Part shown: positions 23,459 to 58,340 of the stretch, piece by piece | Layout: every line of letters begins with the position of its first letter | Numbering within the stretch: the first letter of the stretch is position 1 | DNA from: Candidatus Collierbacteria bacterium | GTDB lineage: Bacteria; Patescibacteriota; Microgenomatia; UBA1400; JACPES01 | Direction of reading: 5' to 3' | Length of the DNA: 64,000 nucleotides | Assembly: GCA_016183365.1 (NCBI GenBank) | Contig: JACPES010000003.1 | Span: forward strand, 13,726 to 77,725 | Translations under genes and position numbers: made by a program | Notes under the pieces: generated by a model | The model's database searches: none | What the model was told of the DNA's origin: nothing | The model's input: the letters and a program-made list of their open reading frames with translations, nothing else

Positions 23459-23559
23459 TTTTATTTTTTGAGCCTTTTCAACCTTTCTATCCTTCTAACT
23501 TTTCGGTTTTCTTTTTTAACCTTTTTGGCCTTTCCAGCCTTTTTAACCTTCTGACCTTT

Positions 23560-34870: not shown

Positions 34871-37092
34871 AGATTCCTTTAATCACCAATATTTTTAAGA
34901 CTAAAAAACCGGAGAATCCAAAAAATCAAGATATTTCGCCGGCAATGCAGTTTGCCCAGGGAATTACCACTATTCAGGATATCTTGGCCCCGGATGCAAT
35001 TGAGGTTGACTTTACCCACCTTAAAATCGGCAACCGGCTGGTCCGAACCCTATTTGTGGCCGGTTATCCGCGTTTTGTGGCCGCCAACTGGCTGTCTCCT
35101 TTGATAAACTTTGACCACTCTTTGGACGTTTCCATGTTTGTTTATCCGGTTGAAGGCAAGGGCGTTTTGGAAAATCTGCGGCGGAAAATCACCGAAATGG
35201 AAGCCGAGATTAATTCCGACCTGCAGCGCGGCCGGCTGGCCAATATTGATACTCAAGTCAAGCTGGAAGACGCCAAAGGGCTGCAGGAACAGTTGGCCAA
35301 GGGGTCTGAACGTTTTTATCAATTTAGCCTGTACGTGACCATCGGATCAGACACCGAAGAAGAACTGAATCAGATCTCCAAACAAATTCAATCCACATTA
35401 GGGTCTCTTTTGATCATTGCCAAACCGGCGTCTTTCGTCATGGAACAAGCCTTTAAAACCACTCAACCGCTGGGTCAGGATTTTTTAAATATTACCCGGA
35501 ATATGGATACCACTTCTCTGGCAACCACTTTTCCGTTTACTTCCAGCGAACTCTCGGCCAATGAGGGAATTTTATACGGAATCAACGAGCATAATGATAG
35601 TTTGGTGGTATTTGACCGCTTTTCCAGAGAGAACGCGAATATGGTCGTATTTGCAAAATCGGGCGCGGGAAAGTCGTTTTTCGTCAAACTTGAAGCCCTG
35701 CGGTCGTTAATGTTTGACACCGAAGTTATCGTCATCGATCCGGAGGACGAATATCACCGGATGGCCGACGCCGTCAACGGCCAATATATTGATTTTAGTT
35801 TTTCATCCAAGGTTAAAATAAATCCTTTTGACCTTCCCTCTTACGCCCGCGGAGAATCCGGACAGGCAGGAGAAAACGAACTATCGCAAAAATTGCTTTC
35901 GCTTCACGCCCTAATGAAAATAATGCTTGGGAGCATGGACGCCACCCAAGAGGCCATCTTAGATCGAGCCTTAATCGCCGCCTATAAAGCCAAAGGCATC
36001 AGCCCCAATCCGGAATCGTTTAATAACGAACCCCCTCTTTTGGAGGATTTATATAAATCTTTGATTGGAATGGAGGCCCCGGGAGCCGAGAACTTGGCCG
36101 CCAGATTGGAAAAATTTGTCAAAGGCAGTTTCCGCGGACTGGTGGACCAAAAAACCAATGTCAACTTGACCAGCGACTTTATCGTCTTTGGAATCAAGAA
36201 TCTGGAAGACGCGCTCCGGCCGGTGGCCATGTTTATGATTCTGGATTTTATTTGGACCAAAGTAAAATCCCAACTTAAGCGCCGGCTATTAATAGTAGAC
36301 GAGGCTTGGTATTTGATGAAAAACCAGGATTCAGCCCTGTTTTTATACTCTATGGCCAAACGAGCCCGTAAATATTATTTGGGGTTGACTACCATTACTC
36401 AAGACGTCGAGGACTTCTTGCATTCTGACTACGGTAAGGCTATCGTCACCAATTCCAGCATTCAAGTCCTGATGAAGCAGTCGGCGGCGGCGGTTGACTC
36501 TCTCCAAGAAGCCTTTTATCTATCCGCCGGGGAGAAACAACTCTTAATGGCTTCAGAAATTGGCGAAGGGTTGTTTTTTGCCGGCCAAAACCATGTGGCC
36601 ATTAAGGTTGTCGCCAGCCCGGAAGAACACAAATTAATCACCAGCAAGCCGCAGGAAATATTAGAAATGGCAAAGCAACGGGGACAACCCGAGGAGAGCG
36701 CCAACCCCGTAATTGCGACACCACAACGTCCCGATTTGATCGGGGGGAGTGGCGAGCATACTACTGGGGTTCCGGAGAGCAATTACTGGAAACCTCCAAA
36801 ACCGGCCGGACAGGAGTCTTTGGCTCTAAATGAAATCGAAGTGGACGTAATTAAAGATCAGAATACTCTAAAAACTCAGATTGCCGGAGAATCGGAAAAT
36901 AAGAGAGTCGGGCTATCGGATAATCGAATTTCCAGGAAGCCGGCAACTCCCGAGCCTCCGAATCTCCGGCAATCTGGCCATCCGAGTGTTCCGAGTATTC
37001 AGAAAACTCCGCTAGCCCCAAATGCCGCCGTCCAACCATCCATCGAATTTACTTCGATATTTGAAACTCAGCCGAAAAAAACAACAGAATAG
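34867..37092 (+). CDS. virB4: VirB4/TrbE/PrgJ-family T4SS ATPase
   Basis: Walker A VFAKSGAGKSFFV, Walker B RRLLIVDEAWYLM, and the TTITQDVEDF motif. The N-terminal domain pattern is typical of Gram-positive VirB4. It has a C-terminal Pro-rich tail. Confidence 0.8.
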   Translation: MKIPLITNIFKTKKPENPKNQDISPAMQFAQGITTIQDILAPDAIEVDFTHLKIGNRLVRTLFVAGYPRFVAANWLSPLINFDHSLDVSMFVYPVEGKGVLENLRRKITEMEAEINSDLQRGRLANIDTQVKLEDAKGLQEQLAKGSERFYQFSLYVTIGSDTEEELNQISKQIQSTLGSLLIIAKPASFVMEQAFKTTQPLGQDFLNITRNMDTTSLATTFPFTSSELSANEGILYGINEHNDSLVVFDRFSRENANMVVFAKSGAGKSFFVKLEALRSLMFDTEVIVIDPEDEYHRMADAVNGQYIDFSFSSKVKINPFDLPSYARGESGQAGENELSQKLLSLHALMKIMLGSMDATQEAILDRALIAAYKAKGISPNPESFNNEPPLLEDLYKSLIGMEAPGAENLAARLEKFVKGSFRGLVDQKTNVNLTSDFIVFGIKNLEDALRPVAMFMILDFIWTKVKSQLKRRLLIVDEAWYLMKNQDSALFLYSMAKRARKYYLGLTTITQDVEDFLHSDYGKAIVTNSSIQVLMKQSAAAVDSLQEAFYLSAGEKQLLMASEIGEGLFFAGQNHVAIKVVASPEEHKLITSKPQEILEMAKQRGQPEESANPVIATPQRPDLIGGSGEHTTGVPESNYWKPPKPAGQESLALNEIEVDVIKDQNTLKTQIAGESENKRVGLSDNRISRKPATPEPPNLRQSGHPSVPSIQKTPLAPNAAVQPSIEFTSIFETQPKKTTE

Positions 37093-37188
37093 AAGGTTAA
37101 AAGGATTAAAAAGGTTGAAAGGTTACAAGGCTGGAAGGTGAGTTTTTTTCAACCTGCCAACTTTTAGCCTGCCGACCTGGATTTCTCG

Positions 37189-38271
37189 TTATTTCTGGAC
37201 GCGGACCGGCATAATCACATGAAGATAATTTTTCGACTTAAATACTCCCGGCTTTAGAGAATCCACCATACTAAAATTTATGGTTTCTTCATCCGTCGAC
37301 CCTAAATAATCTAATAAATAGCGGCCGTTAAAAGCCATTTCCCCCTCGCCCTTTCCTTCGACCTCCAAGATTGTCTCGTTCTCGCCTATTTGAGGAGAAT
37401 TGGCCGACACTTTTAATTTACCATTTTTAATCTTCCACTTAATTATATTGGCCGCGCTTCTGGCGAAAATAGCCGCCACTTTAACCGCCCGCTCCAATTC
37501 TGATCGATTAACGGAGATTGATAAATCAAATGTTTGGGGAACAATTTTTTCCGTCGGCGGAAAATCTCCAGCTATTGTCCGTCCGGACAGCCACCCTTTA
37601 TCTCCGATAATCCCGACTTCCCCGGATTGGCCAAGATTCAAACTAATCTTTTCGACATCCGAAAATTTATCGGCCTCTGACAAAAACCGGGCCGGGATAA
37701 TTATTGTTTTTTCTACCCGGCCGCGGGCCGGGACAGTGGCGAGGCTAAGCCTATAACCATCTGTAGCCATCATTTTCATTTCCTCGCTTTCCGCTGTCGT
37801 CAATTTTATTCCGGTCAAAACCGGCCGGGAATCGTCTTTGGCTGTGGCGAAAACCGTTCTTTTTAAAAGAAATGATAACTCTTCAGGCTTCATCTCCAGA
37901 TCTGATCCGACAGGCGGCTCGATTTTAGGAAATTCTTCTCCGGAAATCCCCACCAATCGGGCTTTAAATGAACCGGATTTGATTAATAACGAATCCTTTT
38001 CAGATGATAGATCGACTTTCCCGGCTATCAATTGGGAAATCAAAGCCGAGAACTCTTTAGCCGGAATTGAAATTTCTCCTTCTTCCTCAATTTTTCCTCC
38101 TACTGTTAATCCCATTGAAATTGACAGGTCTGTGGCTAAAAAAACTATTTTTCCTTTTTCTGCTTTTAATAAAATATTAGACAGAATCGGCAACTGCGGT
38201 TTTGACGACACAATTTTAGAGATAGTCAAGGCCGCTTTAGTTAAATTTTCCTGCAAAATTGATATTTTCAT
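37189..38271 (-). CDS. dnaN: DNA polymerase III beta sliding clamp
   Basis: MKISILQENLTKAALTISKIVSSKPQLPILSNILLKAEKGKIVFLATDLSIS is a typical DnaN N-terminus. It lies directly downstream of dnaA. Confidence 0.9.
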   Translation of the reverse strand: MKISILQENLTKAALTISKIVSSKPQLPILSNILLKAEKGKIVFLATDLSISMGLTVGGKIEEEGEISIPAKEFSALISQLIAGKVDLSSEKDSLLIKSGSFKARLVGISGEEFPKIEPPVGSDLEMKPEELSFLLKRTVFATAKDDSRPVLTGIKLTTAESEEMKMMATDGYRLSLATVPARGRVEKTIIIPARFLSEADKFSDVEKISLNLGQSGEVGIIGDKGWLSGRTIAGDFPPTEKIVPQTFDLSISVNRSELERAVKVAAIFARSAANIIKWKIKNGKLKVSANSPQIGENETILEVEGKGEGEMAFNGRYLLDYLGSTDEETINFSMVDSLKPGVFKSKNYLHVIMPVRVQK

Positions 38272-38503
38272 TGTTTCGTTTTGTCTCTATATTAATTAGT
38301 CCTAGTATATAGGAATGTGGATTTGTCGAGAACTATTAAAAAACCCCTTTTCTCTGGCATTTTTTCTTATAAACCTTTGTTTATAAGAAAAGTGGACAAA
38401 TTGTTAACTCTCCAATTGCCCTGGGAATTATCAACAACCCTAAAAAGTTTTTCGCGACTAATTCACCAGTTATCCACAGAGTTATCCACGGATTGTGGAC
38501 AAC
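38272..38503. promoter_or_regulatory. Candidate oriC: DnaA-box cluster and AT-rich region between dnaA and dnaN
   Basis: TTATCCACA (38471), TTATCCACG (38484), TTGTGGACA (38493), AGTGGACAA (38390), TGTGGATTT (38305). There is also the palindrome CTTATAAACCTTTGTTTATAAG and A/T tracts. Confidence 0.6.
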
Positions 38504-39931
38504 CTAGGCTATTCTCTTTCTGACTTCAGCTAAAGCCCCCCTCAAATGGGCGTTGGTGGCTAGCTCGGCTGTTATTTTATCCGTGGCGTGAATAACAGTG
38601 GAATGGTCTCTGCCTCCAAAAATCCGGCCAATGGAGACCAATGGTAACTGGGCTTCGGTTTTTAAAATATACATGGCTAAATGGCGCGGAATAACCAAAT
38701 CTTTTTGACGACGGCCCCCCTTTATCTCTGCGGACCTGATCCCGAAAACCTCGCAAACAGCGGAGATAACACTGTTGGGAGAAATTTTAGTCAACGGCTG
38801 ATTTTGATTACTGCTTTCAGATGTATTTGCCTTGAACGATTTAATTACTTTCTCGGCAACCTCAATTGTAATTTTATTCCCATGGATTTGGGTTTCCGCC
38901 AATAGTCGTTTTAAGACACCTTCCAAAAAGCGGGTGCTTTCGATATTTCCGGCGATTAATTGAGCCACGTCCATGGGGATGTCTATCCCCCAAGCTTTAG
39001 CCTTAATTAAGACGATGGCAGCGCGTAATTCAAAACTAGGCTGTTGGATATCAATGGTTAAGCCACCCTCAAAACGGCTTTTTAATCTGGCTTCCAACCC
39101 CAAGATTTCGCTGGGGAACTGGTCGCTGGTTAGGACAATTTGTCCGCCCTCCTGATGGATGGCGTTGAAAGTATGGAAAAATTCTTCCTGGACCTTGTCT
39201 TTGCCCCCGATAAATTGGATGTCATCAAGCATCAGGGCTTTGACGGATCGGTATCTTTTACGGAATTCGGCCGTGGTTTTATATTGAATGGCCTCGATAA
39301 TTTCATTGGTAAATTGTTCAGCGCTGCGGTAAATGACTTTGGTTTGAGGGTCGGCTTCCAAAATCCGATGGCCGATCCCCTGCATCAAATGGGTTTTGCC
39401 CACTCCCACTCCGCCAAACAAAAATAACAGGTGGTAGGCTTGACCCGGATTGCGGCTAACGGCTTGAGCGGCGGCATAGGCCATTTCGTTGGTGGAACTA
39501 ACGGCGAATTGTTCAAACGTAAAATCCGGCCTTAAATGGGCGGCTTGAGTACTGCGGTGATAGGCGGCCCGGGAATCATCGGCCGCCGAAAAAAGCGGCC
39601 CGTATGAAGATAACGGTAAAGTCTGTTTGGAGTCCGGGGCGGCCAAAGTAAACTGCAGCTCGCAGCTTTTATGAGTAACTCTTTCAAAAGCATCTTTAAT
39701 CTGTTGGCTGCAGTTGGTTTTAATCCATTGTTGGTGGAAAGATGACGAGGCTGCTAGCAGGGCGGAAATTTTTTCTTCGTCTTCTTCTACTTTTTCTAAT
39801 TTGGTCTGGGAAATAAAGGAGCTGAAGGTTCCGGCAGACAGCTCCACCCTTAAATCTTCCTGAACAGTTTTCCACAGCTCAATCGTATTCATATCTAGGG
39901 CAAATTTATAAAGTTTTCCACACTTAGTCAA
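38504..39931 (-). CDS. dnaA: Chromosomal replication initiator DnaA
   Basis: AAA+ Walker A LFLFGGVGVGKTHL, Walker B ALMLDDIQF, and a C-terminal DNA-binding domain (VIPRHLAMYIL). Confidence 0.92.
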   Translation of the reverse strand: MTKCGKLYKFALDMNTIELWKTVQEDLRVELSAGTFSSFISQTKLEKVEEDEEKISALLAASSSFHQQWIKTNCSQQIKDAFERVTHKSCELQFTLAAPDSKQTLPLSSYGPLFSAADDSRAAYHRSTQAAHLRPDFTFEQFAVSSTNEMAYAAAQAVSRNPGQAYHLLFLFGGVGVGKTHLMQGIGHRILEADPQTKVIYRSAEQFTNEIIEAIQYKTTAEFRKRYRSVKALMLDDIQFIGGKDKVQEEFFHTFNAIHQEGGQIVLTSDQFPSEILGLEARLKSRFEGGLTIDIQQPSFELRAAIVLIKAKAWGIDIPMDVAQLIAGNIESTRFLEGVLKRLLAETQIHGNKITIEVAEKVIKSFKANTSESSNQNQPLTKISPNSVISAVCEVFGIRSAEIKGGRRQKDLVIPRHLAMYILKTEAQLPLVSIGRIFGGRDHSTVIHATDKITAELATNAHLRGALAEVRKRIA

Positions 39932-39948
39932 GAAGAAAAAAAGACGAA

Positions 39949-39977
39949 GGGCTTGTTAAGTCAATAAAGACCAAGTA
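39949..39977 (+). promoter_or_regulatory. Sigma70-like promoter for rpmH (TTGTTA, 17-nt spacer, TAGAAT); mRNA probably leaderless
   Basis: The -10 element ends 4-10 nt before the rpmH ATGs at 39981 and 39987. Confidence 0.4.
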
Positions 39978-39980
39978 GAA

Positions 39981-40151
39981 TATGTTCATGGCGAAAACGA
40001 AAAGAACTTATCAGCCTTCCAAAGTCCACCGGGCCCGGACGCACGGATTCAGAAAAAGAAGCTCGACTAAAAGCGGAAAGAACATTTTACGCGACCGTCG
40101 CCGAAAAGGCCGGAAAAAAATGGCGGTAAAAGTGTGGAAAAAGGCTCATTG
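39981..40151 (+). CDS. rpmH: 50S ribosomal protein L34
   Basis: Hand translation: (MF)[54 protein letters not shown]. It is missing from the ORF track because it is under 60 aa. Confidence 0.85.
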
Positions 40152-40160
40152 AAAGAAGGA

Positions 40161-40240
40161 ATGGCTACAATGGCTACAATGACTACAATGGTTTGATACT
40201 TTTAACCATTTTAACCATTTAACCATTTTAACCATTTAGT
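40161..40240. repeat. Heptamer tandem-repeat arrays (GGCTACAAT x3, then TTTTAACCA x4)
   Basis: Direct tandem repeats seen in the sequence between rpmH and rnpA. The same TTAACCATT motif recurs at 1383-1425 and 48858-48900. Confidence 0.7.
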
Positions 40241-40243: not shown

Positions 40244-40575
40244 TTGCTCCCTAAACGTTTCAGACTCTCCAAACAAGAATTTAAACAGGTAATGGACGAT
40301 GGCCAAATGGCGTCGGGAAGGCTGATGGGGATAATAATAGGGACAAGGGACAAGGGACAAGGGAATTGCCAAAAGCGGGAATTATTGTCAGCAAGAAATT
40401 GTCGAATAAAGCCGTGGTCAGAAATAAATTAAAACGGCGGTTGCGGGCGGCGCTGCAGGCTGTTTTGCCGGAAATTCATTCAGAACCGCACTTGGTAGTA
40501 CTGCCCAATCGTCGCGCCCTCAACACTTCTGTCGGGGAATTGGAATCCGAGCTTCGTTCTATCCTAACAATTTAA
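40244..40575 (+). pseudogene. rnpA: RNase P protein component, reading frame broken at a GGGACAA heptamer repeat
   Basis: Frame 0 reads MLPKRFRLSKQEFKQVM...IIIGTRDKGQGN and stops at 40432. The +2 frame from the TTG at 40366 reads LPKAGIIVSKKLSNKAVVRNKLKRRLRAALQ..., the RnpA core. The junction is the GGGACAA x3.6 repeat at 40340-40365, and removing two units restores one ORF. Confidence 0.6.
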
Positions 40576-40601
40576 CAATTCAGCAATGTACCAATGAAAT
40601 A

Positions 40602-40817
40602 ATGAAACGCTTATTTATTTTCGCCATTAACTTTTATCAACGCCTGAAGCGTTTTTTAGGCCTGTCTTCAGTTTGCCGTTTTACACCGTCTTGTTCCGAA
40701 TACGCTAAACAAGCCATAGACCGCCATGGTATCATCAGGGGATCGTCGCTGGGGTTTAAACGAATCTTTCGTTGTCATCCGTGGTCAAAAGGAGGATTAG
40801 ACTCAGTGCCGAAATAA
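40602..40817 (+). CDS. yidD: Membrane protein insertion efficiency factor YidD
   Basis: FYQRLKRFLGLSSVCRFTPSCSEYAKQAIDRHGIIRGSSLGFKRIFRCHPWSKGGLD. Confidence 0.85.
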   Translation: MKRLFIFAINFYQRLKRFLGLSSVCRFTPSCSEYAKQAIDRHGIIRGSSLGFKRIFRCHPWSKGGLDSVPK

Positions 40818-40819: not shown

Positions 40820-40955
40820 AAATTTCCAATTTACAATTTACAATTTTCAATCAAATCTCAATTAACCAATTTTCAATTTTTAATTAAATGCTTGTGTCAT
40901 TTAAAATTCATTCTTTGAAAATTCATTGTAAATTGAAAATTGAGAATTGAAAATT
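40820..40955. repeat. AT-rich tandem-repeat array (CAATTT/CAATTTA/GAAAATT units) upstream of yidC
   Basis: TCCAATTTACAATTTACAATTTTCAATC...AATTGAAAATTGAGAATTGAAAATTAG. The left and right halves are inverted copies. Confidence 0.6.
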
Positions 40956-41744
40956 AGTCAAGCCATGTTCAACACTTATCTCTATCAACCAATCTTGCAG
41001 TCTTTGATCTTTTTCTATCACCTGTTGGGAGATTCCTTCGGGTGGGCGATTATCGGAATGACTTTTGTGATCCGGTTGCTTTCGGCCCCATTAACAATTC
41101 CGGCCATGCGGGTCCAACAGAAACTGCAGAAACTCCACCCCGAATTGGAAAAACTTAAAAAGACACATACTGATAAGAAGGAACTGCAAAAAGCCCAACT
41201 GGAACTTTACCGCCAACATGGAGTTAATCCCGGCGCCGGGTGTCTGCCGCAAATCGTTCAGATAGTTATTTTGATCGCCCTTTATCAAGTATTTATGAAA
41301 TTTTTAAATGGCGGAATGGTTGATGGTCAGGCCGTAAATATGAACTTTTGGTGGCTAGATTTATCCAAACCGGATAAATATTATATTTTGCCCTTCTTGG
41401 CCGGAACCACCCAGCTGGTTTTTTCCATGATGCTAAAGCCGGGAACGGAACACCATGAAGAAAGCAGAAAGATTGTTGAAAGAAAAGAAGAGTCCCGCGG
41501 AACGGGATCCGGCTCCGCCGGAAAAACAGAAATGGATATGGCCACTGAAATCCAAAACCAAATGTTGTTTATGATGCCGCTGATGACAACCATAATCTCG
41601 TTAAAATTCCCCTCCGGCCTGGCCCTATATTGGGTAATGACCACTGTTTTTTCCATAATCCAGCAATGGATAATGACCGGTCCCGGAGGCTTAAGATATT
41701 TTTTCAAAAAAGCCCTTGATATAATTGGCATATGGAAGAAATAA
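40947..41744 (+). CDS. yidC: YidC/Oxa1-family membrane protein insertase
   Basis: Core segments IRLLSAPLTIPAMRVQQKLQKLHPELEKLKK and GCLPQIVQIVILIALYQVF, in the conserved rnpA-yidD-yidC-jag order. Confidence 0.85.
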   Translation: MKISQAMFNTYLYQPILQSLIFFYHLLGDSFGWAIIGMTFVIRLLSAPLTIPAMRVQQKLQKLHPELEKLKKTHTDKKELQKAQLELYRQHGVNPGAGCLPQIVQIVILIALYQVFMKFLNGGMVDGQAVNMNFWWLDLSKPDKYYILPFLAGTTQLVFSMMLKPGTEHHEESRKIVERKEESRGTGSGSAGKTEMDMATEIQNQMLFMMPLMTTIISLKFPSGLALYWVMTTVFSIIQQWIMTGPGGLRYFFKKALDIIGIWKK

Positions 41745-42211
41745 ATAAAAAAATAAAAAAAGTTTTGGAAGAATTGTTGAAACTGATGGGAATTGCAGAT
41801 TTTTCGGTGGAAGTCAGTCAACTAGATGAAAACGTAATGGCTGCGGTAACGGTTCCCCAGGAAGAATCCGGAATTCTAATCGGCTATCACGGCGAGACGC
41901 AAGCGGCCTTACAGTATTTAACCGGTCAAATTGTTAATAAGGGTCAGGAAAAATGGGATAGGATTATAGTTAATATAAACGGTTATCGCGATCAGCGCGA
42001 GGCCCAATTGAAACAAATGGCCAACAATGCGGCGGACAGGGCCCTATCTTCAGGCAATGAAATTGAGATGCCCTTTTTAACTCCGGCCGAGAGAAGAATT
42101 ATTCACCTGGAATTATCTACCCGCCCCGATATTTCTTCTTATTCCGAAGGCGAGGGCCGAGATAGAAGATTGGTTATCGCTCCTAAAACCGCCGATCAGG
42201 ACAAAGCCTAA
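41732..42211 (+). CDS. jag: Jag/KhpB-like RNA-binding protein (KH plus R3H)
   Basis: GYHGETQAALQYL and ERRIIHLELS (R3H) motifs. Located downstream of yidC. Confidence 0.7.
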   Translation: MEEINKKIKKVLEELLKLMGIADFSVEVSQLDENVMAAVTVPQEESGILIGYHGETQAALQYLTGQIVNKGQEKWDRIIVNINGYRDQREAQLKQMANNAADRALSSGNEIEMPFLTPAERRIIHLELSTRPDISSYSEGEGRDRRLVIAPKTADQDKA

Positions 42212-43285
42212 ATAAATTCCCAAGATTATTCTATTCTGTTGTGATGTTACCCAATAGTGGTCAAGAAGTGAGGTGGAGAAAACCGTTATTAGTCCGGGAA
42301 GAAGTGTCGGGGTTCTTTTCAAGACAGGATAAATTTTCAGCAATCCGATAAGTAAAATTGCGAATCCGAATATTCCGGTTTCGGCTAGAATAAGGAGAAA
42401 AACATTATGTGGAGGTTGGATGCTCCAAAAGCCCGGCGGAAAATAATTTGGAAGTTCTGTTAGTAATTTCCCCGGCCCGATTCCAAAAATCGGGAAATCG
42501 GAAAAAACCTTTAATGCGACCCGATTAAGAATGACGCGTCCGCTGGAACCCGATTCGGAAAAGGATATTATAGACTGGATGTAGGGTTTGTTAGCTAAAA
42601 CAAAATAAGACATAGACCCAATGAAAATTGCCAAAAGAGCGTTTCTGGAAAAGGTAAGCAAAATTCCTCCAATTGCCATCAGTCGCTGGGGCTTATTTTT
42701 CCATAGAATAAACGCCGCCAGTAACAGCCAGCCAGCCAAAGCATTTGGATGGGAAAAGGTTGCATAGGGTCGCAAAAATCTCTGACCAAAAAGATCAATC
42801 GTGGCGATATTAGGGGTAGCCAGAGAAAAAGTTCTTTCGCCGAATATCCACCACCAGCCGGTAGATTTTTTAATTGAGAATTGGACAACTTCTAATATCA
42901 GAGAAAATATCAAAGGGAAAAATAAACATTTTTTTATGCCTCGAATGATGCCAAAATTCCTGCCGTTGATATAAATAATCCAAGCCAGCGCCGGTATTTG
43001 AAGATATCTTAAAGACCAATAGACGGAGGGAATATTTCCTTTTCCTGAAAAAAGTGATAATCCCAAAAAAATCGTAATTAATATTTTTGGGAATAAAGCT
43101 TGACGGAATTTAATGAAAGAAATAATTAGTACCCCTATAAATATTAAGTCGGTTAAATAAATAGTAGGAGACAGATAGTCAACTTTTATTCCATTAACCA
43201 AACTCCACGCCGGCCAAAAATGAAATCCCAGCTGGGCGGGAGACAACAGTACCAAAAGTATTATCAGCCAGTAGTTGATTTTCAT
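42113..43285 (-). CDS. Polytopic membrane protein, O-antigen ligase (Wzy_C/WaaL)-like
   Basis: At least 10 TM helices and the motif QPPHNVFLLILAETGIFGF (H-N...E-G signature). Confidence 0.45.
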   Translation of the reverse strand: MKINYWLIILLVLLSPAQLGFHFWPAWSLVNGIKVDYLSPTIYLTDLIFIGVLIISFIKFRQALFPKILITIFLGLSLFSGKGNIPSVYWSLRYLQIPALAWIIYINGRNFGIIRGIKKCLFFPLIFSLILEVVQFSIKKSTGWWWIFGERTFSLATPNIATIDLFGQRFLRPYATFSHPNALAGWLLLAAFILWKNKPQRLMAIGGILLTFSRNALLAIFIGSMSYFVLANKPYIQSIISFSESGSSGRVILNRVALKVFSDFPIFGIGPGKLLTELPNYFPPGFWSIQPPHNVFLLILAETGIFGFAILLIGLLKIYPVLKRTPTLLPGLITVFSTSLLDHYWVTSQQNRIILGIYLGFVLIGGFRSDNQSSISALAFGIRRNIGAGR

Positions 43286-43308
43286 AAGTAAATGTACAAT
43301 ATCACCAA

Positions 43309-43752
43309 ATGAAATTAGTTATTCATGCCGACGGAGGCTCCAGGGGAAATCCGGGCCCGGCCGCCTATGGCGTCATCATCGTCGATGAAACCGGGAAACA
43401 AATAGCCATATTAGGGAAATCCATTGGGGTTAGCACCAACAATCAGGCCGAGTATAAGGGAGTAATTGTCGCGTTGGAACTAGTTAAACAATTGATATTG
43501 GCAGGGAAAAAATTTTCCTCGCTGGAATTTTATTTGGATTCTGATTTAATCGTCAATCAACTGTCCGGGAAATATAAAATCAAGTCGCCCGTGTTGGCGA
43601 TGCTGGCGATAAAAGCCAAAAACTTAGAAAAAGAAATTTCTGTCTCCACGGTTTATAATTATATTCCCCGAGAGCAAAATAAATTGGCAGATAAAATTGT
43701 TAATCAGGTTCTTGACTTAAAAATGCCGGTATATGAAATAGATTTAGCCTGA
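43309..43752 (+). CDS. rnhA: Ribonuclease H-family protein
   Basis: IHADGGSRGNPGPAAYGVII...TNNQAEYKGVIVALE are RNase HI catalytic motifs. Confidence 0.7.
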   Translation: MKLVIHADGGSRGNPGPAAYGVIIVDETGKQIAILGKSIGVSTNNQAEYKGVIVALELVKQLILAGKKFSSLEFYLDSDLIVNQLSGKYKIKSPVLAMLAIKAKNLEKEISVSTVYNYIPREQNKLADKIVNQVLDLKMPVYEIDLA

Positions 43753-43906
43753 TCCCAGTCAATCTATTGAAATTTCAATTGACCAAAATATGACCGAATG
43801 GGTACTTTCGCCAGCGAAAGTACCTACTTTCGTTCCCCAAGTTGACCTGAATAACCAAAAATAACTTGGCACTAATGACATCGCAGTATTTTTTTGGTAA
43901 AGTAAT

Positions 43907-44755
43907 ATGAAAGACATGAAAAATTATTTGGTAGAAGTCGAAACAGTTAATAGCGAGATTAGGTCTGTGCTGATCGGAGGTGGATATATCGCTCAAAAGT
44001 TAGCATTTATTTTGCATAACAGAGGGTTGTCATGCGCGATTATTTCCAGCCCGAAAGACTTAGACTTATCAGCCTCGCCGGAATTTATTTTTTTATTTAT
44101 GGATGGATTGGAATTGGTGCCGGAAATGATTTTAAATTTTGTGGAGTCAGTCAGGACAAAATTAATTATAGTTACCGCTGACGGTGCTCCCGCGGAAGAT
44201 GTGGTTCGACAATGTTTGTCCAAAGATATTGATTTTTGTTCAGCCTCAATTTACAACCTCTATGGAGGCGGAGAATTTGGCGGAATTTTGGACGCTATTT
44301 TTTCTGAAGTTAAAGATGGCAAACTTTATACTTTTAAAAATGATCAAATTATTGTAACCCCACTTTATATTGACGACGCCGTGGAAGGTCTTTGCCGGAT
44401 AGCGTTTTCTACCCAAACTTTTAAAAAAAACTTTTTGTTAACCGGAATAGAAGAAGTTCCGTTGGTGGGCTTTGTAAACAGAATCGCGGCAGAAGCAGGC
44501 AGAATCTTTGGATTTATATTAAAGTCTGAAGAACACCGTCAAGCATATCCGGACATCGTTGTCCGCCATGAAAAAATCTTACAAAGAGATGAATCATGTT
44601 TATTGCTTAACTGGCAGCCGGAAGTCGGTTTATCTGAGGGGATTAAGACGGCCTTAGAATTATTAAAGTCCATAAATAATAACTTGAGAGGCCAGATTGC
44701 AGAGGTTGCAAAGGAGCAACCGGAAGTTAAAAAAAAAACGACTTTAAGCCTATAA
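43907..44755 (+). CDS. NAD-dependent epimerase/dehydratase-like protein (divergent)
   Basis: Weak Rossmann-like segments and TPLYIDDAVEGL. Confidence 0.3.
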   Translation: MKDMKNYLVEVETVNSEIRSVLIGGGYIAQKLAFILHNRGLSCAIISSPKDLDLSASPEFIFLFMDGLELVPEMILNFVESVRTKLIIVTADGAPAEDVVRQCLSKDIDFCSASIYNLYGGGEFGGILDAIFSEVKDGKLYTFKNDQIIVTPLYIDDAVEGLCRIAFSTQTFKKNFLLTGIEEVPLVGFVNRIAAEAGRIFGFILKSEEHRQAYPDIVVRHEKILQRDESCLLLNWQPEVGLSEGIKTALELLKSINNNLRGQIAEVAKEQPEVKKKTTLSL

Positions 44756-47675: not shown

Positions 47676-47756
47676 ATTGTCCTGCGGAGCAAGATCCTGC
47701 TTTGCAGGACTAAATGCCTCCACAATTTAACAATCTAACAATTTAACAATCTAACA
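47676..47756. repeat. Partial third copy of the hairpin element plus a CAATCTA/CAATTTA heptamer array
   Basis: GATTGCTAAATTGTCCTGCGGAGCAAGATCCTGCTTTGCAGGACTAAATG then CAATTTAACAATCTAACAATTTAACAATCTAACAATG, which runs into the tsaC-tsaE start codon. Confidence 0.4.
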
Positions 47757-48857
47757 ATGAAAATCCTTAACCTGAAAGAAACCTCTAAACATGACGCTAC
47801 CGCTCAATCAGTTAAAATTCTCCGAGCTGAGGGCCTTGTCATCTACCCCACCGAAACCGTTTACGGCGCCGGAGTTGATGCTACCAATCCGGCGGCGGTA
47901 AAAAAACTGGGCGAATATAAATCTAGGCCATTCGGCAAACCTTTTTCAATTGCCGTAGCCGATTGGAAAATGGCGGAAAAATATGTGGTTTTGAATGAAA
48001 CCGCCAAAAAACTTTACCGGCAATTTTTGCCCGGTCCGTTAACAATAATATCTAAACTAAAAACACTTAATTCTTCTAACCCTTCTAACCATTTTCTTTC
48101 TCCCGGCGTCGCCTCTGAAGCCGGAACACTGGGGATTAGGATTTCATCGTATCCGCTGGTTGCGAAAATTGTCAGGTCGTTGGGCAGGCCAATTACCGCC
48201 ACATCCGCCAACGAGGCTTACAAAAAAAGGCCATATCAGATATCAGATATTTTATTTAATATTTCAGACAGGAAGAAACAGCTGATAGATTTAATTATTG
48301 ATGCCGGAGAATTGCCGAGAAATGAACCGTCAACAGTTATAGACACCACTTTGGACGATCAGACAGTTCTGCGTCAGGGAGATATTCAATTAAAAGATAA
48401 AATCCACATTTTGTCCAGGACTCCGGAAAATACTCAAAATCTGGCCAAAGAACTATGGCAAAAATATGAGGGGTTCGTTGGAAAACGAGCGATTATTTTT
48501 GCTCTCGAAGGCCAACTCGGAGCAGGCAAAACCGAATTTACCAAAGGCCTGGCCCGGGCAATGGGGATAAAAAAGGAAATTACCTCGCCAACATTCAATT
48601 TGGTGAATCATTATTCTTTACTCTTTACTCCCTACTCCTTACTCCATATTGACGCTTGGCGTCTTGAATCATCATCAGAACTTGGATCATTGGACTTTTC
48701 TAAAACAATATCCGATAAGTCGGTGATAGCGGTAGAATGGGCCGATCGGGTAACAAACGTCATTCGCCGCTATCAGGAAGAAGCTGTCATCATCTGGGTC
48801 AAAATTAAATACGGAAAGTCCAAAAACGACCGTTTAATCAGCTGGGGAATTTTTTAG
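47757..48857 (+). CDS. Fusion of threonylcarbamoyl-AMP synthase (TsaC/YrdC domain) with the tRNA t6A ATPase TsaE
   Basis: N-half: LVIYPTETVYGAGVDA, SANEAYKKRP, PSTVIDTT (YrdC). C-half: EGQLGAGKTEFTKGLARAMGI, SPTFNLVNHY, HIDAWRL (TsaE). Two heptamer repeats are embedded in frame (LNSSNPSNHF and SLLFTPYSLLH). Confidence 0.7.
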   Translation: MKILNLKETSKHDATAQSVKILRAEGLVIYPTETVYGAGVDATNPAAVKKLGEYKSRPFGKPFSIAVADWKMAEKYVVLNETAKKLYRQFLPGPLTIISKLKTLNSSNPSNHFLSPGVASEAGTLGIRISSYPLVAKIVRSLGRPITATSANEAYKKRPYQISDILFNISDRKKQLIDLIIDAGELPRNEPSTVIDTTLDDQTVLRQGDIQLKDKIHILSRTPENTQNLAKELWQKYEGFVGKRAIIFALEGQLGAGKTEFTKGLARAMGIKKEITSPTFNLVNHYSLLFTPYSLLHIDAWRLESSSELGSLDFSKTISDKSVIAVEWADRVTNVIRRYQEEAVIIWVKIKYGKSKNDRLISWGIF

Positions 48858-48903
48858 CCCTTTAACCATTCTAACCATTTAAATAATTTTAACCATTTAT
48901 CTT

Positions 48904-50004
48904 ATGACAATTCTTTCTATCGACACCAGTTGCGACGAAACAGCTGTCGCGGTTACAGACGGAAACAGGGTTTTAAGCAATATTATCTGGTCCCAGGCCT
49001 TGCTCCATTCTAAATGGGGTGGCGTTGTTCCGTCTCTTGCCAAGCGCGCCCACCAAGAACGTCTTCCTTGGGTTGTCTCCAAAGCGGTTCACGATTCACG
49101 GTTAACGATTAACGAAATTGATGCCATTGCGGCAACGATTGGGCCGGGATTGGCGATTGCGCTGGAGGTGGGAATTGCCAAGGCAAAAGAATTGGCCCTG
49201 AAGTGGCATAAGCCATTAATTCCGGTGAATCACCTCGAGGGCCATATCTTAAGCCCGTTAGCCTGGTCAACAATCAGCAATCAGCAATTAACAATTAACA
49301 ATTTAAACTTTCCCTTCGCGGCCCTCGTAGTTTCCGGCGGTCACACAGAGCTTGTTTTAGTTAAAAAGATAGGCGAATATCAAATTTTAGTCCGAACAAT
49401 AGATGATGCTTTGGGAGAGGCTTTGGATAAAGCCGCCAGGATGTTAGGATTGGGGTATCCGGGAGGCGCGGTGTTGGAAAAATTGGCCAAAACCGGAAAT
49501 CCTTCAACCTATAAACTGCCATTGCCATTATTAGGCCGGGAAAACCAAGGTAAATTCAGTTATTCAGGATTAAAAACCGCTTTTTATCGGTTAACAAACG
49601 AAAAAAGTTTAACGAAGCAAGAAATTTACGATCTAGCCGCCAGTTTTCAAAACACTTCTTTTGAGCATTTGATAAGAATTGTTAAAAAGTCGGTTTTGTC
49701 ATTGCGAGCCACGCTACAGACGGGACGTGGCAATCCAGAAATTACTGATTTTCTAGTCGGCGGCGGCGTCGCCTCCAACATCGAACTTCGCAAAAGGCTG
49801 CGGAATCTTGGAAAAAAATTCGGACTGAAAATTCATTTTCCCTATTCCAAAAAACTCTGTACCGACAATGCCGCCATGATTGGTCTGGCAGGGCAATGGG
49901 CCTTTGCGAGAGGCGAACTGAAACGAACAAAAGAAGAAATAGAATCAATTGACAGAATTCCCGGACTGGATTTTTCTTTAGGCCTACCTCTTTCTCGCGC
50001 ATAA
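48904..50004 (+). CDS. tsaD: tRNA N6-adenosine threonylcarbamoyltransferase TsaD (Kae1/Gcp)
   Basis: ILSIDTSCDETAVAV, HLEGHIL and VSGGHTELV motifs. An in-frame CAATTAA-type repeat encodes STISNQQLTINNLNF. Confidence 0.85.
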   Translation: MTILSIDTSCDETAVAVTDGNRVLSNIIWSQALLHSKWGGVVPSLAKRAHQERLPWVVSKAVHDSRLTINEIDAIAATIGPGLAIALEVGIAKAKELALKWHKPLIPVNHLEGHILSPLAWSTISNQQLTINNLNFPFAALVVSGGHTELVLVKKIGEYQILVRTIDDALGEALDKAARMLGLGYPGGAVLEKLAKTGNPSTYKLPLPLLGRENQGKFSYSGLKTAFYRLTNEKSLTKQEIYDLAASFQNTSFEHLIRIVKKSVLSLRATLQTGRGNPEITDFLVGGGVASNIELRKRLRNLGKKFGLKIHFPYSKKLCTDNAAMIGLAGQWAFARGELKRTKEEIESIDRIPGLDFSLGLPLSRA

Positions 50005-51300: not shown

Positions 51301-53520
51301 TTATTTCGGCCATTTGGATGCAATTAGCATCTGCTTCGGATATTTTCTGAAATCTTTTATCTCTTCCCAAATCGCTTCGGTCACGAAGGGGACAAACGGA
51401 TGTAGTAATTTTAAAAAAGTGATTAATCCATGAAAAATTGCCTTATCGCTAAGTTTACCGGTCTTATTTTTCTCTATTGCTTCATCGCAAAACCAATGCC
51501 AAAATTCGTTATACACCGTCTCCGCCGCCAGTCCCAGTCGGTAATTTTCTAAATTTTTGGTAACGCTGCCAATTACGGCATTAAGTTTATCGAGAAATTC
51601 CTGATCTCTGCTCTCTGATCTCTGTTCTCTGCTCATCACATATCGCGCAGCATTCCAAATTTTATTCGAGAAATTTCTCATCCCTCGCACCTTATCTTCC
51701 GAGAGGGGAATGGCGCTCCCCGGCGCTACGCCGTAGAGCAATGTCATTCGCAACGCATCCGCGCCGTATTTATCCACCAGCTCAATCGGATTAATTACGT
51801 TCCCTTTTGACTTGCTCATCTTTACCCCCTTAGCATCGGTCACCATTGACCACAGATAAACATCCCTAAACGGCACCTCTTTCTTCAAATAAAGCGAAAA
51901 TATGATCATCCGGGAAATCCAAAATGGCAGAATATCTGACAGCGTGCCGATCACGTCAGTGGGGAAGCGAGTTTTAAATTCATTTTGTTTAAGCGTCACC
52001 AACGGCCATTGTCCTGAAGAAAACCAAGTGTCAAAAGTGTCGGTTTCTTGAAGATAGTCCTCGCCCGGGGCGGAAACCGAAACAGTATATTTTATTCCAA
52101 CAGCTGCCCGCAACTCCTGTAAGCCGTTTTTAACTTCAACCAACGAATAATCTTTCAGCAATTCGCCAATTTTCCCCCTGATTAACTTTTTATTCTTATC
52201 AATGAATTTTACTTCAATATCGCCATTTTGTTTTTTGTTTTTTGTTTTTTGTTTTTTACCGATCTGGTACCACACCGGAATCCTGATTCCCCAGCAAATC
52301 TGCCGGCTAATTGGCCAGTCGTGCATCATCGTCAGCCAGGTCAGTATCTGCTTTTTAAATCTCGTCGGGTAAAACTTGATTTTATTTTCCCGCACTGCTT
52401 CCACCACCGGTTTTTTCAGCGACTCGACTTTGATAAACCAATTGGGAATTACCGTTGGCTCCAGAACCCGCTTGCACTTGTAACACAATCCGACCGAGTG
52501 TTTATAATTTTCATCTATTTTGACCATCAGCCCAGCCGCTTGAAGATCATCAGCTACCTTTTTTCTGGCTTCGGCGACTCGCAAACCTTGATAAATGCCG
52601 CATTTTTCATTGAGTTTCCCGTCCGGCCCAATCACTTGTTTGATTTCCAGCCCGTGACGCAGCCCCATTTGAAAATCATTTGGGTCATGAGCCGGCGTCA
52701 CCTTAACCACGCCGGTGCCGAATCTTGGATCTACCGTTTCATCGGCAATTACTTTTACTTTGAATTTTCCGATTAAGCCCTCAACTGTAATTTCCTGCCC
52801 AATATATTTTTTATATCGTTTATCTCTTGGATGAACCGCGACAGCCGTATCCCCAAATTTAGTCTCCGGTCTCACCGTCGCCAGGATAAATGGGCCGTAT
52901 TTAATGTAATAGAGCGGATCAACTCTTTCTTCGTGTACTACTTCCAATTCTGCCAGCGAAGTTCCGCAACGAGTACAGAAATTAACGATATAACTGTCTT
53001 TATAAATTAATCTTTCTTTCTCCATCCGGATAAAAGTTTCCCAAACCTGTTTCAAAACATGGTCATCTAAAGTAAAAACGCTCCGGCTCCAATCGGCGGA
53101 AAATCCCAGACGCTTAAATTGCTCATAGATCATCCCTGAATTGTCTTTAACGAATTGAAAAATATTTTGGTAAAGCGTTTGCCGGTCAAAATCCAGCCGC
53201 GACTTTCCTTGTTTTGCCAAATTTTTCTCGTACACAAATTGGGTCTCAAATCCGGCGTGGTCCATCCCCGGCAGCCAGACGGTCGAGTACCCCTGCATTC
53301 TTTTCCAGCGGATTAACACGTCGTCAACCGTATACATGGCGTGTCCGGCGTGAAGCGAGGCATTTGCGTTTGGCGGCGGCATCAAAATCGTAAAATTGCC
53401 CCTCTTGTCCTTCTGATCCTTCTCTCCGAATTCCGCCTTAAACGCCCCGCTCTCCTCCCATTTGCGGTAAATTTCTTTCTCAAACTTCTCCGGCTGATAA
53501 ACTTTATCCATAGCCATCAA
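51301..53520 (-). CDS. valS: Valine--tRNA ligase (compact, no C-terminal coiled coil)
   Basis: PPPNANASLHAGHAM (HIGH region), WLPGMDHAGFETQ and KMSKSKGNVI. The overall collinearity is with ValRS. An in-frame GTTTTTT repeat encodes KQKTKNKKQNG. Confidence 0.7.
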   Translation of the reverse strand: MMAMDKVYQPEKFEKEIYRKWEESGAFKAEFGEKDQKDKRGNFTILMPPPNANASLHAGHAMYTVDDVLIRWKRMQGYSTVWLPGMDHAGFETQFVYEKNLAKQGKSRLDFDRQTLYQNIFQFVKDNSGMIYEQFKRLGFSADWSRSVFTLDDHVLKQVWETFIRMEKERLIYKDSYIVNFCTRCGTSLAELEVVHEERVDPLYYIKYGPFILATVRPETKFGDTAVAVHPRDKRYKKYIGQEITVEGLIGKFKVKVIADETVDPRFGTGVVKVTPAHDPNDFQMGLRHGLEIKQVIGPDGKLNEKCGIYQGLRVAEARKKVADDLQAAGLMVKIDENYKHSVGLCYKCKRVLEPTVIPNWFIKVESLKKPVVEAVRENKIKFYPTRFKKQILTWLTMMHDWPISRQICWGIRIPVWYQIGKKQKTKNKKQNGDIEVKFIDKNKKLIRGKIGELLKDYSLVEVKNGLQELRAAVGIKYTVSVSAPGEDYLQETDTFDTWFSSGQWPLVTLKQNEFKTRFPTDVIGTLSDILPFWISRMIIFSLYLKKEVPFRDVYLWSMVTDAKGVKMSKSKGNVINPIELVDKYGADALRMTLLYGVAPGSAIPLSEDKVRGMRNFSNKIWNAARYVMSREQRSESRDQEFLDKLNAVIGSVTKNLENYRLGLAAETVYNEFWHWFCDEAIEKNKTGKLSDKAIFHGLITFLKLLHPFVPFVTEAIWEEIKDFRKYPKQMLIASKWPK

Positions 53521-58269: not shown

Positions 58270-58340
58270 ATTGTTAATTGAAATACACGCCAATTAGTCC
58301 TGCGAAGCATGATCTGGCCCCGCCAGACAATCTAGCAAAT
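58258..58340. repeat. About 80-nt hairpin repeat element, copy 2
   Basis: TATTGTTAAATTGTTAATTGAAATACACGCCAATTAGTCCTGCGAAGCATGATCTGGCCCCGCCAGACAATCTAGCAAAT, about 85% identical to copy 1. It lies immediately before the start of the YidC-like gene. Confidence 0.5.

What the first reader, a model, noticed from the sequence alone, without database searches (positions are those of the whole stretch)
40340..40365. Essential rnpA is frameshifted exactly at a GGGACAA heptanucleotide microsatellite
The RnpA N-terminus is in frame 0 and the RnpA core (LPKAGIIVSKKLSNKAVVRNKLKRRLR) is in frame +2. The switch point is a GGGACAA x3.6 tandem repeat; a 7-nt unit shifts the frame by +1 per copy. Removing two units, or adding one, restores a single full-length RnpA. 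Three explanations fit: an assembly or consensus error at a repeat, slipped-strand phase variation of an essential gene, or internal TTG-initiated expression of a truncated RnpA. Any of the three is notable, because the same heptamer-repeat class is in frame in other essential genes here.
Basis: seen in the sequence. Interest (0 to 1): 0.6.

Follow-up and report, generated by a model that had tools for sequence, protein, structure and literature searches.

The report
rnpA repeat one unit short
The essential RNase P protein gene of this Collierbacteria genome is broken only because a 7-base repeat inside it has one copy too few in this record; contigs built independently from reads of the same strain carry at least one more copy, so the break is most likely an assembly error or a minority variant, not a dead or specially decoded gene.

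Summary
(GGGACAA)x3+GGGAA sits at 40340-40365, and rnpA changes frame exactly there. One, four or seven full units give one intact ORF.

- **Relatives:** about 33 Collierbacteria homologues carry a 7-nt array at the same site, the beta2-beta3 hairpin loop. In the DNA loci read, these arrays are 27-35 nt long and in frame, and the unit sequence differs between lineages. Adding one unit to the window gives 33 nt, the usual length.
- **Independent contigs:** four Logan contigs from four sequencing runs match the window everywhere else with no mismatches. All four read ATA(GGGACAA)x4G, which is at least four units. None carries the 3-unit allele.
- **Conclusion on the frameshift:** it is not a fixed trait of the organism. 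It is most likely a collapsed repeat in the deposited MAG or a minority slipped-strand allele. Adaptive phase variation and programmed frameshifting are not supported. The true copy number (4, or 5-7) could not be read.
- **Wider pattern:** the array belongs to a family found across the genome. The window holds 17 period-7 arrays against about 0.05 in shuffles, with copy number peaking at 4.4-5.0. They lie in frame inside uppS, tsaD, tsaC-tsaE, a class-I aaRS and pgk. I found no description of this for CPR bacteria.

The parts
39982..40152 (+). rpmH (ribosomal protein L34), first gene of the rpmH-rnpA-yidD-yidC-jag cluster, divergent from dnaA (38504-39892/39931, minus strand)
   Evidence: ORF. 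PF00468 on the identical Logan gene call. DnaA domains.
40160..40237 (.). Two intergenic 9-nt arrays: AATGGCTAC x3.6 (40160-40191) and TTTTAACCA x4.3 (40200-40237), just upstream of rnpA
   Evidence: TRF. Logan contigs L092-L095 cross them with no mismatch.
40244..40339 (+). rnpA 5' part from TTG 40244 (residues 1-32: helix 1, strands 1-2). As the record stands, this frame runs on out of frame to TAA 40430-40432.
   Evidence: Aligns residue for residue with the MLPKKFRLS... N-termini of relatives. Secondary structure.
40340..40365 (+). Heptanucleotide array (GGGACAA)x3 + GGGAA, 26 periodic nt counting A40339. This is the frame-break point. It encodes the beta2-beta3 hairpin loop.
   Evidence: Same-strain Logan contigs show at least 4 full units here. 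Relatives have 27-35 nt arrays at the same place. The loop is unstructured with low pLDDT.
40366..40575 (+). rnpA 3' part (core with the RNR motif KAVVRNKLKRRLR), in the -1/+2 frame. NCBI annotates it as a 69-aa protein starting at TTG 40366.
   Evidence: PF00825 at 1e-14. P0010 = MBI2309556.1.
40565..40595 (.). Imperfect 8-nt array (TAACAATT x3.9) spanning the rnpA stop and the rnpA-yidD spacer
   Evidence: TRF; position.
40602..40817 (+). ORF immediately downstream of rnpA, taken to be yidD (membrane protein insertion efficiency factor) from its position in the cluster
   Evidence: ORF. No family search was run on it; the assignment rests on the gene order rnpA-yidD-yidC.
40821..40955 (.). 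Cluster of intergenic 7-nt arrays (AATTTAC x4.4, CAATTTT x2.7, ATTGAAA x4.4) between yidD and yidC. Logan contigs of the same strain begin here.
40947..42211 (+). yidC (40947-41744; PF02096) and jag/khpB (41732-42211; KH + R3H domains)
   Evidence: Pfam annotations on identical Logan genes.

Best explanation
A slippage-prone 7-nt tandem array lies inside rnpA, in the surface hairpin loop between strands 2 and 3. The functional state in this clade is about 4.7 copies (33 nt, 11 residues). That is roughly 21 nt (7 residues) longer than the loop of RnpA proteins that lack an array. The window carries one unit too few (3.7 copies, 26 nt), which moves the essential RNR-motif core out of frame. This state is not fixed in the organism: contigs assembled independently from reads of the same strain carry at least four full units. 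The frameshift in the record is therefore either a repeat collapse or miscall introduced when the MAG was assembled or curated, or a minority slipped-strand allele that happened to be chosen as consensus. The cell's working rnpA is most likely the intact 112-residue gene. Shown: the array, the frame arithmetic, the conserved position and length class in relatives, the loop location, and the discordance with four independent contigs. Inferred: that the true number is exactly four, and that the 3-unit state arose in assembly rather than in cells.
For: (1) One, four or seven units restore the ORF. (2) About 33 Collierbacteria homologues have a hypervariable segment at exactly this place. The segment from the G of 'MGI' to the G of 'KAG' is 19-22 residues in 30 of 33. 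The 4-unit window version gives 20, the 1-unit version 13, and a 7-unit version would give 27. Nineteen of 33 still show at least 3 consecutive i/i+7 identities. (3) DNA of seven relatives shows 7-nt arrays there: ATTCAGT 33 nt, ATTCAGA 32 nt, TCCTTCG 35 nt (twice), AAGGACG 30 nt, CAAAACT 27 nt. All are in frame. (4) Array-less CPR RnpA and B. subtilis RnpA have a loop 5-6 residues shorter in the alignment. (5) The AlphaFold2 model (pLDDT 83) places the array-encoded residues in the unstructured stretch between strands 28-33 and 47-49; residues 37-40 have pLDDT below 50. (6) Logan contigs from SRR12113385, -425, -431 and -383 are identical to the window from as far back as 37304 up to 40364, then read (GGGACAA)x4 G where the window has GGGAATTG. 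Other contigs of the strain show 0 mismatches over several kb apart from adapter ends. (7) A 3-unit array (26 periodic nt) is shorter than what I take to be Logan's k of 31, so contigs would run straight through it. None does, and neither the yidD product nor the 69-aa product is on record in any indexed contig. (8) Only one of 46 database homologues (P0010, which is this record) begins at the break.
Against: No reads could be inspected, and the right-hand side of the array in the read-derived contigs was not recovered. The copy number is therefore known only as at least 4; five or six units would still be out of frame. All four Logan contigs stop right after the last 31-mer that holds unique left flank. 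That implies a branch at the first wholly periodic k-mer: longer alleles, copy-number heterogeneity, a co-occurring strain, or another GGGACAA array elsewhere. Some of these readings mean real heterogeneity. The groundwater MAG project this record may belong to used MEGAHIT plus IDBA-UD scaffolding plus manual curation (PMC7906910). A unitig-based multi-k assembler should normally resolve a 33-nt array with 150-nt reads, so a pure assembler collapse is not guaranteed. I did not verify that the window and the SRR runs belong to that project. The window also contains a genuine-looking pseudogene (cmk), so broken genes do occur in this genome.
Confidence: 0.75

Rival explanations
1. The 3-unit allele is real and dominant in the sampled population, and the cell survives with a split rnpA. 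Under this view the 69-aa core starts at TTG 40366 (GGGA/AAGGGA repeats upstream as a weak Shine-Dalgarno) and works alone or together with the separately made N-terminal fragment, or low-level spontaneous -1 slippage (for example at C CAA AAG, 40368-40374) supplies enough full-length protein.
For: The deposited consensus carries this allele, and NCBI annotated the 69-aa ORF. The break is in a flexible surface loop, the kind of site where split proteins often reassemble (general knowledge). A relative, L006, has an rnpA ORF that begins just 5' of its array and lacks the N-terminal ~30 residues. The frame of the core is open upstream to about 40273, so any -1 slip inside or just after the array would rejoin the protein.
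Against: Four independent same-strain contigs have at least 4 units and none has 3. The 69-aa product lacks helix 1 and two of the four strands of the central sheet. All other relatives keep one ORF. There is no X XXY YYZ slippery heptamer in the zero frame, and the predicted downstream structure is only modest (z = -2.3). In L006 rpmH is truncated as well, so that locus may be a chimeric or deleted contig.
Confidence: 0.12
2. Adaptive slipped-strand phase variation: the array works as an ON/OFF switch for RnpA, as in contingency loci such as neuO.
For: It is a non-triplet coding repeat whose copy number sets the frame, the same logic as the AAGACTC heptamer of neuO (PMC13001214). The copy number differs between the record and the read-derived contigs. 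Every copy of the unit has changed together between lineages (GGGACAA, AGGACGA, ATTCAGA, ATTCAGT, CTTCGTC), which implies repeated slippage or homogenisation over evolutionary time.
Against: rnpA is a single-copy essential gene, so OFF cells would not process tRNA (established knowledge of RNase P). Among relatives the length is nearly constant and in frame, whereas neuO ranges from 3 to 53 copies and 66% of genomes are OFF. The array is short (about 4 copies), below the lengths usual for highly mutable loci. The same arrays sit in many other housekeeping genes, which fits a mutational by-product and not a set of dedicated switches.
Confidence: 0.06
3. Programmed ribosomal frameshifting (-1 or +2) at the repeat produces full-length RnpA from the 3-unit sequence.
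For: The two frames overlap, and a -1 shift anywhere between 40340 and about 40372 would give a protein with an intact core. G-rich, Shine-Dalgarno-like GGGA motifs are repeated upstream.
Against: No orthologue needs a shift, whereas known programmed frameshifts (prfB, dnaX) are conserved across orthologues. There is no canonical slippery site. The predicted downstream structure is weak. Same-strain contigs differ in copy number, which makes a decoding explanation unnecessary.
Confidence: 0.02

Closest known systems
neuO of E. coli K1 (CUS-3 prophage): coding heptanucleotide repeat AAGACTC, phase variation by strand slippage
   Same: A 7-nt unit inside a coding sequence. The protein is full length only for one copy-number class modulo 3. 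The repeat is translated in all three phases as a 7-residue peptide period (PMC13001214).
   Different: neuO is an accessory surface-modification gene with 3-53 copies, and about two thirds of genomes are OFF. Here the gene is essential, the array has about 4.7 copies, the length is nearly constant across about 33 relatives, and all but this record are in frame.
Long simple sequence repeats (5-11-nt units) of prokaryotic genomes, and the heptamer families such as TAACTGA of Beggiatoaceae and cyanobacteria
   Same: Genome-wide excess of short arrays of 7-9-nt units, many directly flanking genes, with 2-6 copies per array. Heptamers are the commonest class, attributed to polymerase slippage (PMC4679880).
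   Different: The Beggiatoaceae repeats are one sequence (TAACTGA) and almost all intergenic. That paper also reports that units whose length is a multiple of 3 dominate in coding regions. Here the units are many different sequences, and 11 of the 17 period-7 arrays lie inside ORFs, including essential housekeeping genes. Copy number has a sharp mode at 4.4-5.0.
Programmed frameshift genes (prfB +1, dnaX -1)
   Same: An essential gene whose two parts lie in different frames.
   Different: Those shifts are conserved among orthologues and have defined slippery sites and stimulators (established knowledge). Neither holds here.
Tandem-repeat copy-number errors or consensus choice in short-read metagenome assemblies
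   Same: A single discordance between the record and independent assemblies, located exactly in a perfect tandem array, with all flanking sequence identical.
   Different: The array is much shorter than a read, so a simple collapse is not expected. Real heterogeneity may underlie it.

Membership tests
RnpA (RNase P protein component, PF00825) | Match to the family profile over its whole length | tested here: met
   The rejoined protein matches PF00825 at 6.3e-19 over profile positions 2-105 of 109. The C-terminal piece alone matches at 1e-14 over positions 41-105.
RnpA (RNase P protein component, PF00825) | RNR motif and alpha-beta sandwich fold; rpmH-rnpA-yidD-yidC gene order | tested here: met
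   KAVVRNKLKRRLR is invariant or nearly invariant in the alignment. The AlphaFold2 model has pLDDT 83 with order H-E-E-E-H-E-H. Gene order.
RnpA (RNase P protein component, PF00825) | One continuous ORF | tested here: not met
   Broken at 40340-40365 in this record. Continuous in all relatives and restorable with one more unit.
Contingency locus (slipped-strand phase variation) | Non-triplet tandem repeat inside the coding sequence, so that copy number sets the frame | tested here: met
Contingency locus (slipped-strand phase variation) | Copy number varies widely among strains or relatives, with many OFF genotypes | tested here: not met
   In 30 of 33 relatives the segment is 19-22 residues long. 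All relatives with this region are in frame. Only this record starts at the break.
Contingency locus (slipped-strand phase variation) | Copy-number heterogeneity within a population | tested here: inconclusive
   The record has 3 units and four read-derived contigs have at least 4. The contig ends imply a branch in the k-mer graph, but reads could not be inspected.
Contingency locus (slipped-strand phase variation) | The gene is dispensable, so the OFF state is viable | not testable with these tools
   RnpA is essential in studied bacteria (established knowledge). No other RNase P protein or RNA gene was seen in the window (Rfam gave no hits), but most of the genome was not available.
Programmed ribosomal frameshift | The frameshift is conserved in orthologues | tested here: not met
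Programmed ribosomal frameshift | Slippery site in the zero frame plus a stimulatory element | tested here: not met
   No X XXY YYZ motif in the array. Only a partial C CAA AAG is present. The downstream fold has z = -2.3 and does not resemble a typical stimulator.
Assembly or consensus artefact at a repeat | Independent assemblies of the same strain disagree only at the repeat | tested here: met
   Four of four Logan contigs that reach the array differ from the record there and nowhere else. Other contigs show 0 mismatches apart from adapter ends.
Assembly or consensus artefact at a repeat | Spanning reads uniformly support a different copy number | not testable with these tools
   There is no access to reads. 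The right flank of the array was not recovered.

The most novel reading that the evidence does not exclude
Collierbacteria, and apparently wider Microgenomates, have a lineage-specific process that installs and keeps homogenising arrays of about 33 nt. Each array is a native heptamer plus about three extra copies, placed in surface loops of essential genes (rnpA, tsaD, uppS, pgk, an aaRS) and between genes. This gives each lineage its own 7-residue-period loop peptide at fixed positions. Under this reading, out-of-frame states such as the 3-unit rnpA allele are real, frequent intermediates that cells survive through split-protein assembly, internal initiation or leaky decoding.
Probability: 0.15. 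Interest if true: 0.7.

Novelty: new variant of a known kind. Interest (0 to 1): 0.4.

Why it matters
For annotation: this rnpA should not be counted as a pseudogene or as a 69-aa protein. MAG pipelines should treat frame breaks at short perfect arrays as suspect.

For biology: a non-triplet repeat has been kept at one loop of an essential protein across a whole clade, with the unit sequence replaced in concert between lineages. The same array class sits in many housekeeping genes. Repeat turnover therefore appears to be a steady source of loop variation, and of transient lethal or near-lethal frameshifts, in these tiny genomes. If within-population heterogeneity is real, it gives a direct way to measure slippage rates and selection in uncultured CPR bacteria.

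Tried and rejected
- **Exact-product look-ups that found nothing:** the 69-aa ORF, yidD, two uppS starts and the array-to-stop partial product. As a result, the right-hand side of the array in read-derived contigs was never recovered.
- **Collection scans:** the genome-contig scan returned only one true relative. The metagenome scan returned mostly distant RnpA genes. Neither held the same strain.
- **RNA searches:** Rfam and tRNA scans of the window found nothing, so the RNase P RNA gene lies elsewhere.
- **Literature:** searches combining Collierbacteria, Patescibacteria, Microgenomates or OP11 with tandem or heptanucleotide repeats found no description of this pattern.
- **Provenance:** I could not confirm from the supplement of PMC7906910 that the SRR runs or this MAG belong to that study.
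- **Considered and rejected:**
  - A programmed frameshift, because there is no conservation and no slippery site.
  - A dedicated phase switch, because length is constant among relatives and the gene is essential.
  - A simple small-k de Bruijn collapse as a sure cause. The arithmetic fits: collapsing a 33-nt array at k = 20-26 gives exactly 26 nt. But unitig-based multi-k assemblers do not normally emit such paths, so I keep this only as a possibility.

Full report
**Observation.** The sequence at 40340-40365 is (GGGACAA)x3 followed by GGGAA. TRF reports 40339-40364, period 7, 3.7 copies, 100% identity. From TTG 40244 the frame reads LLPKRFRLSKQEFKQVMDDGQMASGRLMGIIIGTRDKGQG, then runs out of frame to a TAA at 40430-40432. 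The RnpA core, LPKAGIIVSKKLSNKAVVRNKLKRRLRAALQ...SILTI, lies in the -1/+2 frame and ends at 40575. Rebuilding the array with 0 to 7 full units gives one continuous ORF for 1, 4 and 7 units only. Pfam PF00825 matches the C-terminal piece at 1e-14 and the rejoined protein at 6e-19 over profile positions 2-105 of 109. Such an array is far beyond chance. The window has 17 period-7 arrays of at least 3.5 copies, and 31 of period 7-9. Twenty dinucleotide-preserving shuffles gave a mean of 0.05.

**Context.** The gene order is dnaA (minus strand), then rpmH, rnpA, yidD, yidC and jag on the plus strand. The database holds the 69-aa ORF from TTG 40366 as MBI2309556.1, 'ribonuclease P protein component [Candidatus Collierbacteria bacterium]', on a 588,265-nt contig. 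The public annotation has therefore accepted the truncated product.

**Relatives.**
- A protein search with the rejoined sequence found 46 homologues, 39 of them close (E of 6e-19 or better), all carrying PF00825.
- In the alignment, every close relative has a hypervariable stretch exactly where the array lies, between the conserved (M)GI(L/I)I and (P)KAG. Many of these stretches have a 7-residue period: RTKDEGRRTKE, QNSEFRIQN, QYSVFSIQYS, HHPSSIIHH, VKSENLKVKS. Nineteen of 33 keep at least three consecutive i/i+7 identities.
- The segment length is 19-22 residues in 30 of 33. The 4-unit version of the window gives 20. The 1-unit version gives 13, and a 7-unit version would give 27.
- DNA from seven relatives confirms 7-nt arrays at the same place, all in frame: ATTCAGT 33 nt (L003), ATTCAGA 32 nt (L006), TCCTTCG 35 nt (L004, L005), AAGGACG 30 nt (L104, the closest relative at 77% protein identity) and CAAAACT 27 nt (L001).
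- The window plus one unit is 33 nt. The units differ from each other by one to three positions, and each change is present in all copies. The array has therefore been homogenised repeatedly while keeping its place and length.
- More distant CPR RnpA proteins and B. subtilis RnpA have no array, and their loop is 5-6 residues shorter in the alignment. This is close to a native heptamer plus three extra copies (21 nt, 7 residues).
- An AlphaFold2 model of the 4-unit protein (pLDDT 83, pTM 0.72) places the array-encoded residues in the unstructured stretch between strands 28-33 and 47-49. The lowest confidence is at residues 37-40. This is a permissive hairpin loop.

**Independent evidence on copy number.**
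- Looking up the exact rpmH and DnaA products found Logan contigs (assemblies of single public sequencing runs) of the same strain.
- Four contigs reach the array, from SRR12113385, -425, -431 and -383. They are identical to the window from as far back as 37304 through 40364. All four then read ATAATAATA(GGGACAA)x4G before ending. At that point the window has GGGAATTG after the third unit.
- Other contigs of the strain cover 4963-6657 and 40925-44711 with no mismatch apart from adapter ends.
- The exact TsaD product, with its two imperfect arrays, is also on Logan contigs.
- The only discordance between the record and the read-derived contigs is therefore the copy number of this array.
- A 3-unit array has 26 periodic nt, shorter than what I take to be Logan's k of 31, so contigs would run straight through it. 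None does. Neither yidD nor the 69-aa product is on record in any indexed contig.

**Limits of that evidence.**
- The contigs end right after the last 31-mer that contains unique left flank. The next k-mer, which is wholly periodic, must therefore be branched.
- A branch there can come from alleles of at least 5 units, from copy-number heterogeneity, from a co-occurring strain with the same array, or from another GGGACAA array elsewhere in the genome.
- I could not recover the right-hand side of the array. The number is thus at least 4, not proven to be 4.
- One contig (L099) also stops inside the perfect uppS array after 26 periodic nt, the exit point of a 3.7-copy allele. This hints that heterogeneity may be real at such arrays.
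- If this MAG comes from the Northern California groundwater project, it was made with MEGAHIT, IDBA-UD scaffolding and manual curation (PMC7906910). L001's record title points to that project; accession proximity is only my own impression, and the link could not be verified.
- Collapsing a 33-nt array at k = 20-26 gives exactly 26 nt. However, unitig-based assemblers do not normally emit such paths. I cannot say whether the 3-unit state arose in software or in cells.

**Genome-wide family.**
- Of the 17 period-7 arrays, 11 lie inside ORFs.
- Those that could be assigned to a gene are in uppS (two arrays), the tsaC/sua5-tsaE fusion, tsaD (two), a class-I aminoacyl-tRNA synthetase (two), pgk and rnpA.
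- All except rnpA are in frame, and their copy numbers cluster at 4.0-5.0 (28-35 nt).
- In PGK the array adds 7 residues to what I recall as the canonical VPL-KDG-KITD segment (translation).
- Arrays between genes show the same 4.4-4.9 copy mode. Arrays of 8- and 9-nt units are mostly intergenic.
- Relatives carry the same kinds of arrays.
- The TsaD alignment shows length- and sequence-variable, often 7-periodic, segments at the same loops across Microgenomates.

**Mechanism.**
- *Most likely (0.75):* the array is a slippage-prone coding microsatellite whose selected state is about 4.7 copies. The record carries a minus-one-unit state that is not the genotype of most cells, either through an assembly or consensus miscall or as a minority slipped allele. 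The working gene encodes a 112-residue RnpA.
- *Rival, 0.12:* the 3-unit allele is real and dominant, and function is kept by a split or internally initiated protein or by leaky -1 slippage.
- *Rival, 0.06:* adaptive phase variation.
- *Rival, 0.02:* programmed frameshifting. The last two fail on conservation, since all relatives are in frame. Programmed frameshifting also lacks a slippery site, and the predicted downstream structure is weak.

**Comparison with known systems.**
- The logic is that of neuO. Its AAGACTC coding heptamer gives full-length protein only when the copy number is divisible by three (PMC13001214). But neuO varies from 3 to 53 copies and is OFF in two thirds of genomes. 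Here the length is nearly constant and the gene is essential.
- The genomic background resembles the long simple sequence repeats of 5-11-nt units described for some prokaryotes, and the TAACTGA heptamer arrays of Beggiatoaceae and cyanobacteria (PMC4679880). Those are one motif and mostly intergenic, and that literature reports that units of a multiple of 3 dominate in coding regions. Here many different heptamers sit in frame in housekeeping genes.
- I found no description of this for CPR bacteria.

**Verdict.** The frameshift itself is probably not biology to build on, and it should be checked against reads. The array behind it is real, conserved in position, hypervariable in sequence, and part of an unusual genome-wide pattern. 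That pattern is where the interest lies. Interest 0.4; new variant of a known kind.

Noticed in passing
window 61862-62330: cmk (cytidylate kinase) looks like a true pseudogene. Two ORFs in different frames match PF02224 profile positions 66-126 and 143-210. The P-loop N-terminus and profile positions ~127-142 are missing. No tandem array lies at the break.
   Followed up: partly
window 6161-6193, 6632-6664 (uppS); 48618-48645 (tsaC-tsaE); 49091-49115, 49269-49303 (tsaD); 51601-51631, 52226-52257 (class-I aaRS); 63105-63138 (pgk); 7420-7452, 57121-57154 (unassigned ORFs): In-frame heptamer arrays of 3.6-5.0 copies (25-35 nt) inside housekeeping genes; eight of the ten are 4.4-5.0 copies, and the first tsaD array (49091-49115) is 3.6. 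The intergenic period-7 arrays range from 3.6 to 4.7 copies and several share the 4.4-4.7 mode, so frame selection alone does not explain it.
   Followed up: partly
L006 2440-2520 (Ga0209211_10013165): In this relative, rpmH codon ~24 is joined to rnpA just 5' of its ATTCAGA array, and about 250 nt are missing. rpmH's GFRK codons (GGATTCAGAAAA) contain the array unit ATTCAGA, which suggests either a deletion or an assembly chimera through the shared heptamer.
   Followed up: no
L099 (SRR12113424), window 6627-6657: A same-strain Logan contig stops inside the perfect uppS AAATTCG array after exactly 26 periodic nt. That is the point where a 3.7-copy allele would leave the array, so copy-number heterogeneity may exist there too.
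   Followed up: no
L105 182-628 (CAYOPB010000076.1, P0025): This relative's RnpA has a loop segment about 36 residues longer than the usual 19-21 (56 against about 20) at the same position, with several short 9-10-nt repeats and no clean heptamer array. It may be an expanded and decayed array.
   Followed up: no
window 1383-1420, 6904-7032, 22975-23056, 23513-23566, 37093-37130, 40160-40237, 40821-40955, 47722-47758, 48861-48898, 58252-58277: Many intergenic spacers in the window hold A/T-rich 7-9-nt arrays. The same few units (TTTAACCA(T), ACAATCTA, AACAATT, AAAAGGTT) recur at separate loci, often abutting start or stop codons. Function unknown.
   Followed up: no
window 36000-40000: Cumulative GC skew reaches its minimum around 36-40 kb, next to dnaN-dnaA and the divergent rpmH. 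This fits a replication origin there.
   Followed up: no
window 47757-48857; 5762-6121; 19504-19962; 21632-21889: A TsaC/Sua5-TsaE fusion protein, a 23S rRNA intervening-sequence protein (PF05635) gene, a HicA/HicB pair, and a second HicB-like gene.
   Followed up: no
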